A stretch of 52,991 bases of DNA from a virus, in IMG/VR virus record IMGVR_UViG_3300011896_000001, positions 1-52,991 of that record. One strand, 5' to 3'. The position numbers and the translations under genes were made by a program. Positions 2,776-7,604 of the stretch are shown in pieces. Every line of letters begins with the position of its first letter. The stretch's first letter is position 1. The notes under the pieces were generated by a model. It saw only the letters and a program-made list of their open reading frames with translations, was not told the origin of the DNA and searched no databases.

Positions 2776-2955
2776 GATGCTTTCACGCATCGGAATATCC
2801 AGGAACCCATTTACTAGGTGGGGGATACCGTTAAATTCCTGAATATTCCGACAAGCGAAGGCTTGTCCTAAGAAAGACGTCTTGGCGATGACCTGCGATG
2901 TATTATGGTGCAGCTCCCCTGTTAAGGATCATGGCTCGCTCTCGCTATTTCTTCC
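2776..2955 (-). ncRNA. Structured ORF-free intercistronic RNA element in the early operon; identity unknown.
   Basis: Three adjacent helices are present. GATGC/GCATC is at 2776-2791. A 14-bp stem at 2791-2804 / 2837-2850 has its single non-Watson-Crick pair as G-U only on the minus strand. gacaagc-gaag-gcttgtc is at 2850-2867. The tract is GC-enriched and has stops in all frames. Confidence 0.45.
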
Positions 2956-3153
2956 CTACCTGCTAGCATGGACTAACCATGATAGCAACGCTCTTAGCTT
3001 AAAGGGCTTGTTTATAGTCGCTAAGACGACTTTTATTGATTTTGGCATGTACATCTTCATTGTTATCCACAGTTTTGCGAATGGATGATCACCAGGTTTC
3101 GTGAAGCAATATTCATTGTAGAATCCCGTATTCAATTTCCCTTTAAAAATCAT
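2956..3153 (-). CDS. Hypothetical protein, 65 aa.
   Basis: Track ORF. An AAAGGGG RBS lies 9 nt upstream of the ATG at 3153. The C-terminal part runs into the structured tract, so the real end is uncertain. Confidence 0.4.
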   Translation of the reverse strand: MIFKGKLNTGFYNEYCFTKPGDHPFAKLWITMKMYMPKSIKVVLATINKPFKLRALLSWLVHASR

Positions 3154-3428: not shown

Positions 3429-4196
3429 TTAAACCGCCTCCTGATCTTGTTCTTTCTTCAGTCGGTCTATGATGTAGGCTTGTCCTTTTGGTGTTACGTA
3501 TGTTGTTGTCCATGTGAATGCTTCACCGTTTGGTTTCTGTTTAACACCTTGTGCGATTTCAAAGTATCCTTTTTCAACTGCTGGCTGAGTTGGTTCAGTA
3601 GAACGTTTGAACATTAACTCCCATTCTCGAAGCTTTGCGAATAACTGGCGTTGACCAATTTTTACTCCTTGTTTTGTTGCTAACTTTGCAACTTCACTTA
3701 CTTTCAACGTTTGTTCAGATTGCATACACGCTTCTGCGAAGACTACCAATGGTTTCTGCTTTACGATTTGTTGTTGTGCTGCTGCAAGCTTTTCTTTCTC
3801 TTCTTTTAATTTAGTGAGAAGCCCGATTGCAAAGTCTGGATTAGTTACTGCTTGTTCCAGGACTTGATCTGTCATGTATGCTCCGTGTTTTCTAATAGAA
3901 GGAAGTACTTCGCTTGTTACCCACTTTTTGAATGCTTTCGCTTGTGGTTTGCGACTTCTCAAGACTAATGAGTAAAGTCCACTTTCATTGATTGTTTGTA
4001 ATTGTTGTATTCCACCAAGGGTGTCCATACTATGTACTCCCTTTTCATCTTCATCTAAGATTGAAATCGACGTTCTATGATTCTTAATTTCTAGTACATC
4101 GCACACATCTTTCGCTACAAACCAAACATCTTCGCCTTGCACCATCGTTCGAACTTGTCCGAACTCTTCATTATTGAAAACTTGTAATTGATTCAT
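3429..4196 (-). CDS. Phage antirepressor with a Bro-N domain and a KilAC/ANT C-terminal domain.
   Basis: 255 aa. NQLQVFNNEEFGQVRT...WFVAKDVCDVLEI...ESGLYSLVLRSRKPQAKAFKKWVTSEVLPSIRKHG is a classic BRO-N pattern. The C-terminal half is KilAC-like. Confidence 0.9.
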   Translation of the reverse strand: MNQLQVFNNEEFGQVRTMVQGEDVWFVAKDVCDVLEIKNHRTSISILDEDEKGVHSMDTLGGIQQLQTINESGLYSLVLRSRKPQAKAFKKWVTSEVLPSIRKHGAYMTDQVLEQAVTNPDFAIGLLTKLKEEKEKLAAAQQQIVKQKPLVVFAEACMQSEQTLKVSEVAKLATKQGVKIGQRQLFAKLREWELMFKRSTEPTQPAVEKGYFEIAQGVKQKPNGEAFTWTTTYVTPKGQAYIIDRLKKEQDQEAV

Positions 4197-4215
4197 TTTC
4201 TTTCCTCCTCTTATA

Positions 4216-4232
4216 GTTCACGTTTCGTGAAC
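4216..4232. promoter_or_regulatory. Operator palindrome GTTCAC-N5-GTGAAC (copy 1).
   Basis: Perfect 6-bp arms read directly, located between the cro-like and antirepressor genes. Confidence 0.6.
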
Positions 4233-4262
4233 GTTTAGGTAAAAATAATAGTTAACTTTTCG

Positions 4263-4463
4263 TTAACCTTCTACTAATTCATCGACCGAAACTCCATACA
4301 ATTTAGATAGTAAACCTAATCTGTACAAGCTCGGTTGCCTCTTACCTGACTCAAGTTGTGAATAAGCAGACTTTGTTGAATATCCAAGATAATCACCAAC
4401 ATAACCCTGACTATAACCACGATTCTTTCGTAACGCTTTGGCTTTTTCTATATTTAATTTCAT
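4263..4463 (-). CDS. Cro-like XRE-family HTH regulator, 66 aa from MKLNIEK.
   Basis: GYSQGYVGDYLGYSTKSAYSQLESGKRQPS is the HTH_3 pattern. An AAAGGTGA RBS lies before the ATG at 4463. It is the first gene of the minus-strand early operon, divergent from the CI-like gene. Confidence 0.8.
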   Translation of the reverse strand: MKLNIEKAKALRKNRGYSQGYVGDYLGYSTKSAYSQLESGKRQPSLYRLGLLSKLYGVSVDELVEG

Positions 4464-4494
4464 GTTTATCACCTTTGTTCGTTTCGTTAATTTG

Positions 4495-4523
4495 ATAATA
4501 TCATGCTGTTCACTATTTGTGAA
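4495..4523 (-). promoter_or_regulatory. Candidate early (Cro) promoter: TTCACA-17-TATTAT on the minus strand.
   Basis: -10 is the reverse complement of 4495-4500 and -35 is the reverse complement of 4518-4523, with an exact 17-nt spacer. The operator at 4508-4524 overlaps the -35 and the spacer. Confidence 0.6.
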
Positions 4524-4524
4524 C
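4508..4524. promoter_or_regulatory. Operator palindrome GTTCAC-N5-GTGAAC (copy 2).
   Basis: Perfect arms, same half-sites and spacing as copy 1. It lies inside the divergent cI/cro intergenic region. Confidence 0.65.
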
Positions 4525-4570
4525 CCCTAAATTTAATTTTCTTCAAAAAACTTAAAAAGGTTGTCTTTGA

Positions 4571-4587
4571 GTGAACTTTTCTGTTAC
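4571..4587. promoter_or_regulatory. Related site GTGAAC-N6-GTTAC, with half-sites in swapped order and one degenerate.
   Basis: Read directly; possibly a weaker third operator. Confidence 0.35.
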
Positions 4588-4617
4588 ATTTTAAATATAT
4601 ATTGAGTATATATTTAA

Positions 4618-4646
4618 TGTACAAACGCAAAAGATAATGGTATATG
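4618..4646 (+). promoter_or_regulatory. Candidate repressor-gene promoter: TGTACA-17-TATATG with a TG extension.
   Basis: Hexamers and spacing read directly. It lies about 25 nt upstream of the AAAGGGGAG RBS of 4672..5022. Confidence 0.4.
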
Positions 4647-4671
4647 GAACGTTATAAAGGGGAGAAAACAA

Positions 4672-5022
4672 ATGAATCACCAATTAATTAGTAAAAGGGT
4701 TAAGGAAATCAGGACTGAAATACTAAAAATGAGTCAATCTGAATTCATCAATGCACTTGGACTAAAAAGTAAATCCGCAGTTTCTATGTGGGAAAACGAA
4801 GAAATAGATAAATGCCCATCGAGAAAAACTTCTTTAGATATAGCCAAACTTGCAAATGTATCTGTAGCTTATGTATTAGGAGAATCTGATGAAAAGAATC
4901 CTATAACAAGCGCTCAAGATGAATTTGAAGAATTAATAACTCAATTTAAAGAAAAAGACCCAGAAAAACAAAAAGAAATAATGAGGTTGTTTAAAGACTT
5001 AATGAAACTAACAGGCGATTGA
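4672..5022 (+). CDS. CI-like XRE-family repressor, 116 aa.
   Basis: MSQSEFINALGLKSKSAVSMWENEE is an HTH_3 pattern. The RBS is strong. The gene is divergent from the cro-like gene and has a C-terminal helical extension. Confidence 0.8.
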   Translation: MNHQLISKRVKEIRTEILKMSQSEFINALGLKSKSAVSMWENEEIDKCPSRKTSLDIAKLANVSVAYVLGESDEKNPITSAQDEFEELITQFKEKDPEKQKEIMRLFKDLMKLTGD

Positions 5023-5050
5023 TAGCATTAGAAGCTACCGATCGCCTGTT
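5010..5050. terminator. Bidirectional hairpin between convergent genes: 10-bp perfect stem aacaggcgat / atcgcctgtt.
   Basis: Arms are at 5010-5019 and 5041-5050. The hairpin overlaps the 3' ends of both 4672..5022 (+) and 5028..5177 (-). Confidence 0.55.
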
Positions 5051-5177
5051 TCATTTTCATTATAATTTCAAGTGACTTTTCATCGCCTTCATGTGCTGCT
5101 TTTGTAACTTCTAATAACTGTGCTTCGAATTCTTCTACCTCTGTTATTGATACGCTTTCTAATTTCTCTTTCATCAT
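5028..5177 (-). CDS. Small acidic ORF, 49 aa (MMKEKLESVSITEVEEFEAQLLEV...), in the position of arbitrium aimX.
   Basis: My own translation. A GGGGGAAG RBS lies 8 nt upstream. It is the third unit downstream of the receptor and peptide genes and is convergent with the repressor gene. Confidence 0.45.
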   Translation of the reverse strand: MMKEKLESVSITEVEEFEAQLLEVTKAAHEGDEKSLEIIMKMKQAIGSF

Positions 5178-5344
5178 CGTAACTTCCCCCTACATCCTAT
5201 TTTGTATATTTTTGGAATTAATTACTTTTTTGCCGTTTCTTCTAAAAAGGAAATTTATCCGTAAAATACGAATGACACCGCCAGTTAAGACGATGTCATT
5301 TTTAATTTATATTTAATTAAAAGCAATGACAGAACTGGAAATAA

Positions 5345-5491
5345 TTACCAGCCCCCGCCTGGATCAGTCATCATGCGTTGAACAACAGGCTCAGATGCTT
5401 CTTGTTTATCATTCGTTTGTTGGTTATCAGTAGAAAAAGTGAACAACCCTGCTACTAATAAAATTGGTAATAAAGCTAATATTTTTTTCAA
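5345..5491 (-). CDS. Secreted signalling pro-peptide, AimP/PapR/NprX-like, 48 aa: MKKILALLPILLVAGLFTFSTDNQQTNDKQEASEPVVQRMMTDPGGGW.
   Basis: My own translation. TTG start with an AGAGGTGG RBS 6 nt upstream. The N-terminus has signal-peptide features, followed by a polar linker. The gene lies 40 nt downstream of the HTH-TPR receptor gene. Confidence 0.65.
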   Translation of the reverse strand: MKKILALLPILLVAGLFTFSTDNQQTNDKQEASEPVVQRMMTDPGGGW

Positions 5492-5531
5492 TATTTCCAC
5501 CTCTTCTTTCGAAGATAATTATACCATTTTT

Positions 5532-6683
5532 TCATAGTAAACCCAAGTAAAATTTAGGTAATTGCGAATAATGGATATTACCAGATTTTTGGCACATCAG
5601 CAAGGACTTTCGTAGTAGAGTTTCCCTCTCTTCTCCTTCGCATGTAAGAGCATAGTACGTCGTTTGGATATCTGTCCATCCTCCGTTTTTCTCTTTTAAA
5701 TCTAATAAAATCTTTTTAGCACCTAAAATATCACCTTCGAGTATCTTTGAATATGCATTTTCACTTGGATGTACAAATTCCAAGGTATCCAAATCTCTTT
5801 GATAATGAATTTTCAAGAAAGATAAGGTTTGTTGGACAAGTTTCCATTTCTTTTCTAACCCTTTGCAATTAGGTTTCCCCAATAATTCTAAGGTTTTCTC
5901 TAAATAAAACTTAGCGTTTTCGTAATTTTCAGGTTCGAATATTAATGACTCACCTATTTTCAAATATGCATTTAATTTTGGAAGTGAGAAAAAGCCATCC
6001 CACTCTAATTCATCTAATATATCTCGGCATATGGAACGAGATTCAACTACTTCTCCACCTTGTAAAGAAGTTACCGCCATTGCTTCCTTATATCTTAGTA
6101 ACAAACATTCTTTTATAAATTTATTTGTTGTGTCATTTATTTTTTCGTTAACTGACTTTAGTCTTTCATATAACGTTTTATAGTTTCCAGATTGATATTG
6201 CGCTTGACATAATAAGATCTCCGTCAAAACTTCCATTTCAATCGTTTTAACATTCTTATTCTTTTGTCTTAATAATTTGAAATAAGTTGAAGCATTCAAA
6301 CCTTCATGATATCTTCGAAAAATTATTTCGTATACTTCTGCAAATTCTCTATTTTCGGCAACATCAGAATGAGCCTCTTGATCTATAATCGCTTTCAATA
6401 ATTCGAATTTGCCTCTAATAGCTAAGTCTTCCATAGCTTCTCTTAAATTTTCAGGTTTGGGGTCTGTGTTCATTATATAGTCATTAACAACTTTCGCCTG
6501 TGAAATCAAACTCTTTTTTAATAAAATAAGCGTCTTCGAAAGATATCCGAAACTAATATCGTTAGCTCCTTTAAATACTTTGGTAACTGTAGCAGGCTTC
6601 ACTCCCCAATAATCAGCTAACTGCTTCTTCTTAAATCCAGCTACATATAATTCTCCTTCAAGATTGTTTAATACCTTCCACAC
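5532..6683 (-). CDS. RRNPP-family peptide receptor/regulator (HTH plus TPR-like repeats), AimR-like, 383 aa from the GTG start.
   Basis: The N-terminal FKKKQLADYWGVKPATVTKVF is an HTH. The rest is a long helical repeat body. The C-terminal QKSGNIHYSQLPKFYLGLL resembles the AimR tail KKSNDKFLIRLPLLEL. An AAAGGGAGG RBS lies 8 nt before the GTG at 6683; the ATG at 6782 has no RBS. Confidence 0.7.
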   Translation of the reverse strand: MWKVLNNLEGELYVAGFKKKQLADYWGVKPATVTKVFKGANDISFGYLSKTLILLKKSLISQAKVVNDYIMNTDPKPENLREAMEDLAIRGKFELLKAIIDQEAHSDVAENREFAEVYEIIFRRYHEGLNASTYFKLLRQKNKNVKTIEMEVLTEILLCQAQYQSGNYKTLYERLKSVNEKINDTTNKFIKECLLLRYKEAMAVTSLQGGEVVESRSICRDILDELEWDGFFSLPKLNAYLKIGESLIFEPENYENAKFYLEKTLELLGKPNCKGLEKKWKLVQQTLSFLKIHYQRDLDTLEFVHPSENAYSKILEGDILGAKKILLDLKEKNGGWTDIQTTYYALTCEGEERETLLRKSLLMCQKSGNIHYSQLPKFYLGLL

Positions 6684-6860
6684 TTCTTGTTCCTCCCTTT
6701 TGGAACAAAGACGCTTCGCTCTTTTTCTCAACTTTTTAAACAGGAAATTCATACCATAGTAATGCTTTAGTAATATCGGCATGTTATAATGTAAGTGTTA
6801 CTCGTGTAGTAACCGAAAAGAGACTTATGGCAGATGTTCCCCTCGTGAGTCGGGCGAACG

Positions 6861-6890
6861 GTACAAGTAGTGCTCGCAACACTCTTGTAC
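6861..6890 (-). promoter_or_regulatory. Strong hairpin (11 bp with one bulge) in the long leader upstream of the receptor gene.
   Basis: gtacaagtagtg-ctcgcaa-cactcttgtac, flanked by direct gtgagtc repeats. An extended -10 (TGGTATTAT, minus strand) lies near 6930. Confidence 0.45.
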
Positions 6891-7228
6891 ACGCTGTGAG
6901 TCTTTTTTTCGTTCCGTTTATTTTAATGTTTTCATAATACCACATTTTTCCCAAAATTCAGTCGTGCAGTTATCAGACAATTGTTGAGAAAGTTGAGAAA
7001 CAGCTTTAAATCAACGTTTCTAAGTGATGTAAAAATAAAATATGCAAATATGCATGGAACGTATAAAAGACTTCACATGCATATTTTACCACCAATCTCT
7101 CAAAATGAGAACACTAGTTCTTATTTTTATTTTCAGATTAAGTTGTTAAACGACTTAAAATTTAAAATGAGTTAATAAAACAACTAATTATAGTAGTATG
7201 ATAGTTCAATATTTATACTTTAACTATT

Positions 7229-7573
7229 ATGATACTCTTTGGACAAACTTTAAAATATTTAAGAAAGTCACGTGATTTAACTCAGACGCAATTAGCTGAC
7301 AGGCTCAATCTGAGTCAAAGTCAAATTAAGAATTGGGAAACTGACAGGTTTCAACCAGATCTTGAAACTTTAATTAGTATCGCCTCCTTCTTCAATGTAT
7401 CATTGGACGTCCTCGTTGGCTATTCTAACGAATTCCAAGATGAACCTATACAAAAGGTCATTTCTGAAACTCAAGCAACGTATGGGGCGTTGGATGAAGC
7501 TCAGAAAGAGCGTTTTTGTAATCAGGTATTGTTATTCGTTCAAATGATTAGAGACAACCGAGAAACGTTCTGA
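7229..7573 (+). CDS. XRE-family HTH regulator, 114 aa.
   Basis: FGQTLKYLRKSRDLTQTQLADRLNLSQSQIKNWETDRFQPD is a canonical HTH_3. There is no recognisable RBS before the ATG, so the transcript may be leaderless. Confidence 0.8.
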   Translation: MILFGQTLKYLRKSRDLTQTQLADRLNLSQSQIKNWETDRFQPDLETLISIASFFNVSLDVLVGYSNEFQDEPIQKVISETQATYGALDEAQKERFCNQVLLFVQMIRDNRETF

Positions 7574-7604
7574 TTTGATTTCATTTTAGAAGAAATCTTT
7601 TCCA

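What the first reader, a model, noticed from the sequence alone, without database searches (positions are those of the whole stretch)
5028..6960. Arbitrium-like peptide communication module (HTH-TPR receptor, 48-aa secreted pro-peptide, 49-aa third ORF) beside the CI/Cro switch
The 383-aa protein has an N-terminal HTH and a long helical-repeat body, and its C-terminal tail resembles that of AimR. Forty nt downstream is an unannotated 48-aa ORF with a good RBS. It has a signal-peptide-like N-terminus (MKKILALLPILLVAGLFTFS) and the C-terminus ...QRMMTDPGGGW, which fits an exported pro-peptide whose last 6-10 residues would be the signal. A third small ORF (49 aa, acidic) follows in the aimX position. 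The C-terminal peptide does not look like the xxxRGA arbitrium codes I know from the SPbeta group, so this may be a divergent code or a PlcR/NprR-like variant recruited by a plasmid-prophage.
Basis: partly seen in the sequence, partly recalled or inferred. Interest (0 to 1): 0.8.

Follow-up and report, generated by a model that had tools for sequence, protein, structure and literature searches.

The report
Arbitrium phage communication locus, known type
This is a genuine arbitrium peptide-signalling module (receptor AimR, secreted pro-peptide AimP, small antirepressor AimX) next to the repressor/Cro-like switch of a Bacillus cereus-group phage-plasmid, and it belongs to a type already described in the literature, so it is real but ordinary.

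Summary
The three ORFs exist as described, all on the minus strand: a 383-aa receptor (5532-6683), a 48-aa pro-peptide 40 nt downstream (5345-5491) and a 49-aa acidic ORF (5028-5177).

**Receptor.** It is an AimR. It matches Pfam AimR at E=8e-42. Only AimR chains are found in the PDB by sequence. The AlphaFold model (pLDDT 93) matches AimR crystal structures at TM 0.63-0.76, against 0.37 for PlcR.

**Peptide.** It belongs to the known family ending ...QRMM[T/V]DPGGG(G)[W/L/I]. Its last 11 residues are invariant in relatives despite synonymous codon changes.

**Whole locus.** With the convergent 116-aa HTH gene and the divergent 69-aa HTH gene, it reproduces the five-gene "extended arbitrium" architecture aimR-aimP-aimX / aimC / aimL of Kabel et al. 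(bioRxiv 2025). There, AimX is a small antirepressor of AimC and AimR drives aimX by antitermination. Here:
- a conserved aimP promoter and a terminator hairpin lie where that model expects them;
- AimX types co-vary with AimC types across 12 loci;
- AimC and AimX are 66% and 40% identical to those annotated in Waukesha92 (the paper tested a Waukesha92-like phage).

RefSeq already annotates 97.9%-identical plasmids with "AimR family lysis-lysogeny pheromone receptor".

**Side observation.** An unannotated, very conserved sRNA-like element lies just upstream of aimR.

The parts
5532..6683 (-). aimR: 383-aa arbitrium peptide receptor (N-terminal HTH plus all-helical TPR-like body)
   Evidence: Pfam AimR PF22871 E=8.1e-42, 143.9 bits against a cutoff of 26.7. 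PHROG 1728 E=6e-119. PDB sequence hits are AimR chains only. AlphaFold model pLDDT 92.9, pTM 0.90. The top 16 Foldseek PDB hits are all AimR, TM 0.63-0.76.
5518..5546 (-). Putative aimP promoter (TTGGGT, 17 nt, extended -10 TGgTATAAT), straddling the aimR stop codon (its -35 box lies in the last aimR codons)
   Evidence: Read from the sequence. Identical in all 12 related loci. The TTGGGT box and the TGgTATAAT box also recur in Waukesha92, although its AimR is only 33% identical. Function is inferred by analogy with the phi3T aimP promoter (PMC10769878).
5345..5491 (-). aimP: 48-aa pro-peptide with a signal-peptide-like N-terminus, a variable linker and an invariant C-terminus QRMMTDPGGGW
   Evidence: PHROG 2682 E=2e-19. 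Family alignment A1. pN/pS 0.13; the last 11 residues are invariant while 7 of their codons vary synonymously.
5271..5300 (-). Terminator-like hairpin between aimP and aimX (12-bp stem, then CGTATTTTA)
   Evidence: Terminator scan. Folding energy -18 kcal/mol, z=-6.4. Conserved in all 12 loci apart from a C/T change in the loop and one stem change in L006. It occupies the position of the AimR-controlled terminator of phi3T and SPbeta (PMC10769878).
5178..5270 (-). Conserved leader between the terminator and aimX, including the aimX ribosome-binding site. Candidate location of the AimR operator (not identified).
   Evidence: Alignment of 12 loci. No conserved inverted repeat with a long spacer was found.
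5028..5177 (-). aimX: 49-aa acidic small protein, predicted antirepressor of AimC
   Evidence: PHROG 7267 E=3e-19. pN/pS 0.31. Four AimX types partition exactly like the AimC types. 40% identical to Waukesha92_35, E=7e-9. Function is inferred from Kabel et al..
5010..5050 (.). Strong hairpin spanning the converging 3' ends of aimX and aimC (possible bidirectional terminator)
   Evidence: Inverted repeat I2. Folding energy -30 and -29 kcal/mol on the two strands, z about -8.
4672..5022 (+). aimC: 116-aa repressor-like protein with an N-terminal HTH and a short helical C-terminal domain, and no autocleavage domain
   Evidence: Pfam HTH_3 is the only hit above the gathering score; no peptidase S24. 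66% identical to Waukesha92_34, E=7e-58. Fits the AimC definition of 80-140 aa, convergent to aimX.
4473..4671 (.). aimC-aimL divergent control region with a perfect 11-bp-arm palindrome TTAAATATATA/TATATATTTAA (4591-4617)
   Evidence: Repeat search and sequence. Its role as an operator is inferred only.
4263..4472 (-). aimL: 69-aa Cro-like HTH protein heading the early operon
   Evidence: Pfam HTH_3 E=4e-14. Followed by a Bro-N/KilAC antirepressor gene at 3429-4196, then an Erf-like gene and a DnaD-like loader gene.
6684..7095 (.). Conserved 412-nt non-coding block directly upstream of aimR. It runs from a conserved minus-strand extended -10 (TGGTAAAAT, about 7083-7091) to the aimR start, so it is probably a long aimR leader.
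   Evidence: 82-94% identical in all related loci, including phages whose AimR is only 26-33% identical.
6794..6912 (+). sRNA-like element inside that block: plus-strand extended -10 TGTTATAAT (6782-6790), a structured body and a stem plus U7 terminator
   Evidence: MFE -43.4 kcal/mol, z=-3.6. No Rfam match. Found in 37 IMG/VR contigs. Consensus of 37 pairs, two of them compensatory; five invariant G-U pairs (plus one pair alternating U-G/U-A) fit only the plus strand. Next to an AimR-like gene in 28 of 28 testable loci.

Best explanation
The locus is an 'extended' arbitrium lysis-lysogeny communication system of a Bacillus cereus-group phage-plasmid.

**Shown here by computation.**
- aimR encodes an AimR-family, AimR-fold receptor.
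- aimP encodes a pro-peptide with an export signal and a strictly conserved C-terminus.
- aimX encodes a small protein under purifying selection whose type follows the type of the convergent repressor gene aimC.
- aimC and aimL form a divergent repressor/Cro-like pair in front of the early genes.
- A conserved promoter-like site precedes aimP, and a conserved terminator hairpin separates aimP from aimX.

**Inferred from published work on relatives.**
1. After infection or induction, AimR (without peptide) binds DNA near the aimP-aimX terminator and lets the aimP transcript read through into aimX (antitermination).
2. AimX binds the C-terminal oligomerisation domain of AimC and removes it from the aimL promoter. 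The early lytic operon then fires.
3. Meanwhile AimP is exported and cut by extracellular proteases. The likely product, by analogy with MMSEPGGGGW of Waukesha92-like phage, is MMTDPGGGW or a shorter C-terminal piece.
4. The peptide is re-imported through the Opp permease (established knowledge of RRNPP systems; not tested here) and binds AimR. That stops antitermination, so AimC stays active and lysogeny (here, plasmid-prophage carriage) is favoured.
For: **Receptor.**
- Pfam AimR E=8e-42.
- Only AimR chains are found in the PDB by sequence.
- Model pLDDT 92.9. The top 16 structural hits are all AimR, TM 0.63-0.76, and the next is PlcR at 0.37.

**Peptide.**
- Family with an invariant QRMM.DPGGG core and variation only at the flanking and terminal positions.
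- pN/pS 0.13, with synonymous variation under the invariant C-terminus.

**Architecture.**
- Identical to the five-gene locus that Kabel et al. find in about 75% of 9300 arbitrium systems.
- Also identical to phage B83 and to the annotated Waukesha92 locus.

**AimX and AimC.**
- AimX types co-vary with AimC types, following the AimC C-terminal domain, in 12 loci that share at least 90% AimR identity.
- AimC is 66% and AimX 40% identical to Waukesha92_34 and Waukesha92_35. Kabel et al. tested the AimC/AimX pair of a Waukesha92-like phage: AimC repressed the aimL promoter, AimX relieved the repression, and AimX overexpression raised titre about 100-fold.

**Regulatory sites.**
- A terminator hairpin lies between aimP and aimX, and a conserved aimP promoter-like site precedes aimP. 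Both fit the antitermination mechanism shown for phi3T and SPbeta.

**Public annotation.**
- PGAP labels the 97.9%-identical plasmid copies 'AimR family lysis-lysogeny pheromone receptor'.
Against: - Nothing here was tested experimentally for this allele. The mature peptide length, peptide-AimR binding, AimR DNA binding and AimX-AimC binding are all inferred.
- No AimR operator could be identified. The window has TGTCATT-N24-AATGACA, with the same 31-bp centre-to-centre spacing as the SPbeta operator, but the left box is not conserved in relatives. The only conserved inverted repeat is the terminator stem itself.
- A sequence alignment to SPbeta AimR (my residue count, uncertain at 21% identity) puts V and Q where SPbeta has the peptide-binding N202 and N206. 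Peptide recognition therefore cannot simply be transferred from SPbeta.
- No LexA (Cheo) box is present, unlike phi106. The DNA-damage input is therefore unknown.
- The strong hairpin at the aimX/aimC junction leaves open how far the aimX transcript extends.
Confidence: 0.85

Rival explanations
1. The third ORF is not the effector. Instead, the AimR-dependent aimX transcript acts as an antisense RNA (or by convergent transcription) against the aimC repressor gene. This is the hypothesis attributed to Stokar-Avihail et al. 2019.
For: aimX and aimC converge, with only 5 nt between their stop codons. According to the introduction of Kabel et al., RNA-seq in two such phages showed aimX transcripts extending across the repressor gene. 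A review says the same for Wbeta.
Against: - aimX has a conserved ribosome-binding site and start, with pN/pS 0.31.
- Its protein type follows the AimC C-terminal domain.
- In phi106 and phiW23, start-to-stop mutants of aimX lost function, and a recoded aimX without antisense complementarity kept it.
- A -30 kcal/mol hairpin sits at the junction and could stop read-through.
- The two mechanisms are not mutually exclusive.
Confidence: 0.1
2. The receptor is a PlcR/NprR/Rap-type host quorum-sensing regulator recruited by the element, not an arbitrium receptor. It would control something other than lysis-lysogeny.
For: AimR belongs to the same RRNPP(A) superfamily. PlcR, ComR and Rap appear as weak structural matches.
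Against: - No PlcR, NprR or Rap sequence match in the PDB at E<=1.
- TM-score 0.37 to PlcR and 0.38-0.42 to Rap, against 0.63-0.76 to AimR.
- The Pfam AimR score is far above its cutoff.
- The locus sits inside the repressor/Cro-like switch, exactly as in phages with tested arbitrium systems.
Confidence: 0.02
3. The 48-aa ORF is a small exported or membrane protein with a function of its own (NCBI records name homologues 'complement C1q protein') and not a signalling pro-peptide.
For: Homologues carry that name in NCBI records. No processed peptide has been shown for this allele.
Against: - It lies 40 nt downstream of aimR, where Kabel et al. report that 99% of AimR genes have a putative aimP.
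- The conservation pattern is a conserved signal peptide, a variable linker and an invariant C-terminus.
- The C-terminus is similar to the reported active Waukesha92-like peptide MMSEPGGGGW.
- No Pfam family supports the C1q name.
Confidence: 0.03

Closest known systems
Extended arbitrium system aimR-aimP-aimX / aimC / aimL (Kabel et al., bioRxiv 10.1101/2025.11.23.689978), tested in phi106, phiW23, Wbeta, BMBtp14 and a Waukesha92-like phage
   Same: Same five genes in the same order and orientation. AimX size (49 aa, range 29-80) and AimC size (116 aa, range 80-140) fit, and AimC has a single HTH with no autocleavage domain. There is a terminator between aimP and aimX, AimX co-varies with AimC, and early genes follow aimL.
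   Different: This allele is untested. It has no LexA box between aimP and aimX, unlike phi106. aimX does not overlap aimC.
Bacillus phage Waukesha92 (KJ920400) arbitrium locus, genes 32-38
   Same: Identical gene layout. AimC is 66% and AimX 40% identical. The AimP C-terminus is MMSEPGGGGW against MMTDPGGGW here. The same aimP promoter boxes and the same conserved non-coding block upstream of aimR are present.
   Different: AimR is only 33% and AimP 42% identical. The signalling pair belongs to a different sub-clade from the effector pair, so the locus is mosaic.
Phage RBClin15 and the LambdaBa01-type arbitrium that its authors assign to 'clade 9' (PMC11526630); Bacillus phage vB_BanS_Athena
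   Same: The RBClin15 pro-peptide ends ...VQRMMVDPGGGGW, the same motif family as ...VVQRMMTDPGGGW here. In Athena, AimR is 92% and AimP 96% identical, and its receptor is annotated as aimr.
   Different: The peptide has T instead of V before DPG and one Gly fewer. Athena carries a different AimX/AimC type (type B) and an integrase. Clade membership was not tested here, because the Stokar-Avihail 2019 data set was not available.
SPbeta and phi3T arbitrium (clade 2), the founding systems
   Same: AimR fold (TM about 0.75), aimR-aimP-aimX order, aimP promoter plus terminator logic, and a small AimX protein as in phi3T.
   Different: About 21% AimR identity. The peptide is not an xxxRGA hexapeptide. 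The effector target there is MazEF and the yopM-R/sro operon, not a convergent AimC repressor.

Membership tests
AimR family (Pfam PF22871; AimR branch of RRNPPA receptors) | Sequence matches the AimR profile above the curated cutoff | tested here: met
   143.9 bits against a cutoff of 26.7, E=8.1e-42, covering residues 64-376. All 43 homologues carry PF22871 and most are named AimR family.
AimR family (Pfam PF22871; AimR branch of RRNPPA receptors) | N-terminal HTH plus all-helical TPR-like body that superposes on AimR crystal structures better than on other RRNPP receptors | tested here: met
   Model pLDDT 92.9, pTM 0.90, 21 helices. Top 16 PDB matches are all AimR (SPbeta, phi3T, Katmira33, ATCC13952), TM 0.63-0.76. 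PlcR scores 0.37 and Rap 0.38-0.42.
AimR family (Pfam PF22871; AimR branch of RRNPPA receptors) | Short gene for a secreted pro-peptide immediately downstream on the same strand | tested here: met
   A 48-aa ORF lies 40 nt downstream, with a KK plus hydrophobic N-terminus and an invariant C-terminus. The signal peptide was judged from the sequence; no predictor was run.
AimR family (Pfam PF22871; AimR branch of RRNPPA receptors) | Operator of two short inverted repeats with a spacer of about 25 bp near the aimP-aimX terminator | tested here: inconclusive
   TGTCATT-N24-AATGACA exists in the window, but its left box is not conserved in loci with at least 90% identical AimR. The only conserved inverted repeat is the terminator stem.
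AimR family (Pfam PF22871; AimR branch of RRNPPA receptors) | Mature peptide binds the receptor and releases it from DNA | not testable with these tools
   Needs binding assays, EMSA and peptide addition experiments.
Extended arbitrium locus (aimR-aimP-aimX / aimC / aimL) | Small ORF (29-80 aa) downstream of aimP on the same strand, behind a terminator | tested here: met
   The 49-aa ORF is at 5028-5177. The hairpin at 5271-5300 folds at -18 kcal/mol, z=-6.4. An ORF is present at this position in all 12 loci.
Extended arbitrium locus (aimR-aimP-aimX / aimC / aimL) | Convergent single-HTH repressor gene of 80-140 aa without an autocleavage domain, followed by a divergent small HTH gene and early genes | tested here: met
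   AimC is 116 aa with HTH_3 as the only Pfam hit above the gathering score. AimL is 69 aa with HTH_3. An antirepressor gene, an Erf-like gene and a DnaD-like gene lie downstream.
Extended arbitrium locus (aimR-aimP-aimX / aimC / aimL) | AimX sequence type follows AimC sequence type | tested here: met
   Four AimX types map one-to-one to four AimC types in 12 loci. In L009 the AimC HTH diverges but its C-terminal domain and its AimX do not. The loci are related, so this is a pattern, not a statistic.
Extended arbitrium locus (aimR-aimP-aimX / aimC / aimL) | AimX binds AimC and relieves repression of the aimL promoter | not testable with these tools
   Shown for relatives only.
SPbeta-type (clade 2) arbitrium | C-terminal hexapeptide of the xxxRGA type | tested here: not met
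   The C-terminus is ...MMTDPGGGW. The clade 2 motif is described in PMC13220667.
PlcR / NprR / Rap quorum-sensing receptors | Sequence or fold closer to these families than to AimR | tested here: not met
   No sequence match at E<=1. TM-score 0.37-0.42.

The most novel reading that the evidence does not exclude
The most novel reading concerns the conserved element just upstream of aimR (about 6794-6912, plus strand), not the arbitrium genes. It may be an undescribed small RNA that is a constant partner of arbitrium cassettes in B. cereus-group phages. In that case it would be transcribed antisense to, or divergently from, a long conserved aimR leader, and it would set aimR expression. That would add an RNA layer to the communication switch. 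The element stays at least 88% identical in nucleotides while the adjacent AimR drops to 26% protein identity.
Probability: 0.3. Interest if true: 0.5.

Novelty: already known. Interest (0 to 1): 0.2.

Why it matters
For the finding itself, little is new.
- It adds one more untested member to a family counted in the thousands (9300 AimR homologues in about 5500 Bacillus genomes).
- Its wiring was worked out in relatives.

Its practical value is in three points.
- **Annotation.** The two small ORFs can be named aimP and aimX, and the flanking HTH genes aimC and aimL. The 'complement C1q protein' label on AimP homologues appears to be wrong.
- **Mosaicism.** A QRMMTDPGGGW-type signalling pair is joined to a Waukesha92-type AimX/AimC effector pair. 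The junction lies within the first codons of aimX. This shows that signal and effector modules are exchanged independently.
- **A conserved leader.** The conserved aimR leader, with its sRNA-like element, may deserve an experiment.

Tried and rejected
- **Other RRNPP families.** I checked whether the receptor could be PlcR, NprR or Rap-like. This was rejected by the PDB sequence search and by fold comparison.
- **AimR operator.** I looked for an SPbeta-style operator (6-7 bp inverted repeats with a spacer of about 25 bp). The window has TGTCATT-N24-AATGACA, but the left box is not conserved in relatives, so I do not claim it.
- **LexA box.** I searched for a Cheo box like the one between aimP and aimX in phi106. 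There is none in the window, even with one mismatch allowed.
- **tblastn of the small ORFs against the phage collection.** The 49-aa ORF gave nothing and the 48-aa ORF found only Athena. This is a sensitivity limit of short, low-complexity queries, because local searches of fetched loci and the PHROG profiles do find relatives.
- **Literal peptide search in papers.** DPGGGW and variants gave no relevant hit.
- **Papers not available.** Stokar-Avihail 2019 and Erez 2017 are not in the held library. The clade assignment therefore rests on secondary papers.
- **Rfam.** There was no match for the conserved block upstream of aimR.
- **Possible sRNA target.** I considered pairing between the sRNA-like element and the aimR ribosome-binding site. 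Only a weak 6-nt match was seen by eye, so nothing is claimed.
Full report
**1. What is in the sequence**

The module lies on the minus strand.
- The receptor ORF is 5532-6683, 383 aa from a GTG behind GGGAGG. A longer 416-aa reading exists, but homologues and PGAP use the 383-aa start.
- Forty nucleotides after its stop codon, a 48-aa ORF (5345-5491) starts at a TTG behind AAGAGGTGG. One relative has ATG at this codon. It reads MKKILALLPILLVAGLFTFSTDNQQTNDKQEASEPVVQRMMTDPGGGW.
- After a 167-nt spacer, a 49-aa acidic ORF follows (5028-5177, ATG, ribosome-binding site AGGGGGAA).
- Five nucleotides beyond its stop codon, a 116-aa HTH gene ends on the opposite strand (4672-5022, plus strand).
- That gene is divergent from a 69-aa HTH gene (4263-4472, minus strand). 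The 69-aa gene heads an operon with a Bro-N/KilAC antirepressor gene, an Erf-like annealing protein gene and a DnaD-like loader gene.

**2. Identity of the receptor**
- Pfam AimR (PF22871) matches at E=8.1e-42, 143.9 bits against a cutoff of 26.7. PHROG 1728 matches at 6e-119.
- A sequence search of all PDB chains returns only AimR proteins from SPbeta, phi3T and Katmira33. No PlcR, NprR or Rap appears at E<=1.
- An AlphaFold2 model built on 27 homologues has pLDDT 92.9 and pTM 0.90 and is all-helical.
- Foldseek against the PDB gives AimR structures as the top 16 matches (TM 0.63-0.76). The next is PlcR at TM 0.37.

**3. The peptide**
- Twelve cluster representatives and twelve genomic loci show the same pattern: a conserved signal-peptide-like N-terminus, a variable linker, and an invariant VQRMM-[T/V]-DPGGG followed by W, GL or GI. 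GW also occurs, in RBClin15.
- Across 12 loci aimP has pN/pS 0.13. The last 11 residues never change, although 7 of their codons vary synonymously.

The code is not new.
- DPG motifs are described as widespread among AimP peptides (PMC12700828).
- Phage RBClin15 has ...VQRMMVDPGGGGW and is placed in clade 9 by its authors (PMC11526630).
- B83 has ...YYMADPGGSVG, placed in clade 7 (PMC6669507).
- The peptide cited as active for Waukesha92-like phage is MMSEPGGGGW (review PMC11945551).

Aligned with Waukesha92 AimP, the corresponding product here would be MMTDPGGGW. This is an inference; the true cleavage site is unknown.

**4. The third ORF and the neighbours**

The decisive literature is Kabel et al., bioRxiv 10.1101/2025.11.23.689978.
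- About 75% of 9300 arbitrium systems sit in a five-gene locus, aimR-aimP-aimX, then convergent aimC, then divergent aimL.
- aimC encodes the repressor: 80-140 aa, one HTH, no autocleavage domain. aimL is Cro-like.
- AimX (29-80 aa) is a small antirepressor. It binds the AimC C-terminal oligomerisation domain and blocks DNA binding.
- AimR turns aimX on by antitermination of a transcript that starts at the aimP promoter. This was shown for phi3T and SPbeta in PMC10769878.

The window reproduces this locus gene for gene. I tested the predictions that can be tested on sequence.
- **(a) Promoter.** A promoter-like site (TTGGGT, 17 nt, TGgTATAAT; 5518-5546, minus strand) straddles the end of aimR. 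It is identical in all 12 relatives. Both boxes also recur in Waukesha92, although its AimR is only 33% identical.
- **(b) Terminator.** A 12-bp hairpin with a weak U-tract (5271-5300, minus strand; -18 kcal/mol, z=-6.4) lies between aimP and aimX. It is conserved in all 12 loci apart from a loop change and one stem change.
- **(c) aimX is coding.** Its ribosome-binding site and start are conserved, and pN/pS is 0.31.
- **(d) Co-variation.** In 12 loci whose AimR is at least 90% identical, aimX always occupies the same position and starts M[T/M/K]KE[Q/K/E]L. Its body, however, falls into four types with 20-45% identity between them. These types correspond one-to-one with four types of AimC.
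- **(e) Which part of AimC matters.** In L009 the AimC HTH has diverged, but its C-terminal domain and its AimX have not. This is what AimX binding to the C-terminal domain predicts.
- **(f) Relation to a tested pair.** The window's AimC is 66% identical (E=7e-58) and its AimX 40% identical (E=7e-9) to Waukesha92_34 and Waukesha92_35. Kabel et al. tested the pair from a Waukesha92-like phage.

The homology break between loci lies within the first codons of aimX. The signalling pair and the effector pair are therefore exchanged as separate modules.

**5. What remains open**
- I could not identify the AimR operator. The window contains TGTCATT-N24-AATGACA, which has the same 31-bp centre-to-centre distance as the SPbeta operator ATCACT-N25-AGTGAT. 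Its left box is not conserved in relatives, and the only conserved inverted repeat is the terminator stem.
- There is no LexA box.
- A very stable hairpin (5010-5050, about -30 kcal/mol on either strand) spans the converging gene ends. It may limit antisense read-through, which bears on the rival antisense-RNA model.
- No experiment exists for this allele.

**6. Context**
- The window carries genes for large terminase, portal, head protease, tape measure, tail proteins and endolysin.
- It also carries genes for a ParA-like partition protein, an FtsK-like protein and DnaD/DnaC-like loaders.
- No recombinase was found among the 20 larger ORFs scanned.
- The closest public records are B. thuringiensis plasmids NZ_CP032612.1 and NZ_CP014285.1, 97.9% identical over 4200-7600. 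There PGAP annotates "AimR family lysis-lysogeny pheromone receptor" and both small ORFs as hypothetical proteins.
- Phage vB_BanS_Athena is 86% identical over this region and annotates "aimr transcriptional regulator".

The plasmid-prophage reading is consistent with all this.

**7.

The 6684-6960 stretch is part of a 412-nt non-coding block (6684-7095). It is 82-94% identical in all relatives, including Waukesha92 and CUBc25, whose AimR proteins are only 33% and 26% identical.
- The block begins at a conserved minus-strand extended -10 (TGGTAAAAT, about 7083-7091) and ends at the aimR start codon. It is probably a long aimR leader (inference).
- On the plus strand it contains a perfectly conserved TGTTATAAT (6782-6790), followed by a structured element of about 115 nt that ends in a stem plus U7 (-43.4 kcal/mol, z=-3.6).
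- Rfam has no match.
- An exact-core scan finds it in 37 IMG/VR contigs.
- RNAalifold gives 37 pairs. Two are compensatory. Five invariant G-U pairs (plus one pair alternating U-G/U-A) would be A-C mismatches on the other strand.
- In 28 of 28 loci with enough flank, the neighbouring gene is AimR-like, across several AimR sub-clades.
- Kabel et al. do not mention it.

Its function is unknown. It could be a cis-antisense or divergent small RNA controlling aimR, or a conserved shoulder for cassette exchange.

**8. Verdict**

The system is a member of an already described kind, the extended arbitrium system with a DPG-type peptide, and is already annotated as AimR in near-identical public records. 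Interest in the finding itself is low. The sRNA-like element in the aimR leader is the only item that might be new.

Noticed in passing
window 6794-6912 (+), within the conserved block 6684-7095: An unannotated sRNA-like element lies upstream of aimR. It has a perfectly conserved extended -10, a structured body of about 115 nt and a U7 terminator. It has no Rfam match and occurs in 37 IMG/VR contigs. It is always next to an AimR-like gene and is far more conserved than that gene.
   Followed up: partly
window 6861-6890: The tip of the apical hairpin of that element appears flipped (inverted) between variants. L007 has a 30-nt, 100% match to the window in reverse orientation, flanked by the hairpin arms GTACAAG/CTTGTAC.
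   Followed up: no
window 2954-3031 (-): A full-length Pistol ribozyme (Rfam RF02679, 59.3 bits against a gathering score of 34.5, E=2.4e-8) lies in the early operon downstream of the antirepressor gene.
   Followed up: no
window 7036-7088 and 7229-7573 (+): Three AAATATGCA boxes are present: two direct and one inverted, with 11-bp perfect inverted arms and a 31-nt spacer. They lie in front of a third HTH gene (114 aa), which is called 'prorepressor' or 'immunity repressor' in some phages. That gene is divergent from aimR and is not part of the published five-gene locus.
   Followed up: no
window about 5150-5177 (first codons of aimX); loci L002-L011: There is a mosaic junction here. Homology between loci that share aimR-aimP ends within the first codons of aimX. 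This window therefore combines a QRMMTDPGGGW-type signalling pair with a Waukesha92-type AimX/AimC pair.
   Followed up: yes
window 5345-5491 (-); proteins P0006, P0008-P0012; Athena gp6: AimP homologues are named 'complement C1q protein' in NCBI records and in phage Athena. No Pfam family supports this, so it looks like a propagated misannotation.
   Followed up: partly
window 5010-5050: A very stable hairpin (about -30 kcal/mol on either strand, z about -8) overlaps the last codons of both converging genes, aimX and aimC. The other AimX/AimC types carry a different inverted repeat at the same junction.
   Followed up: partly
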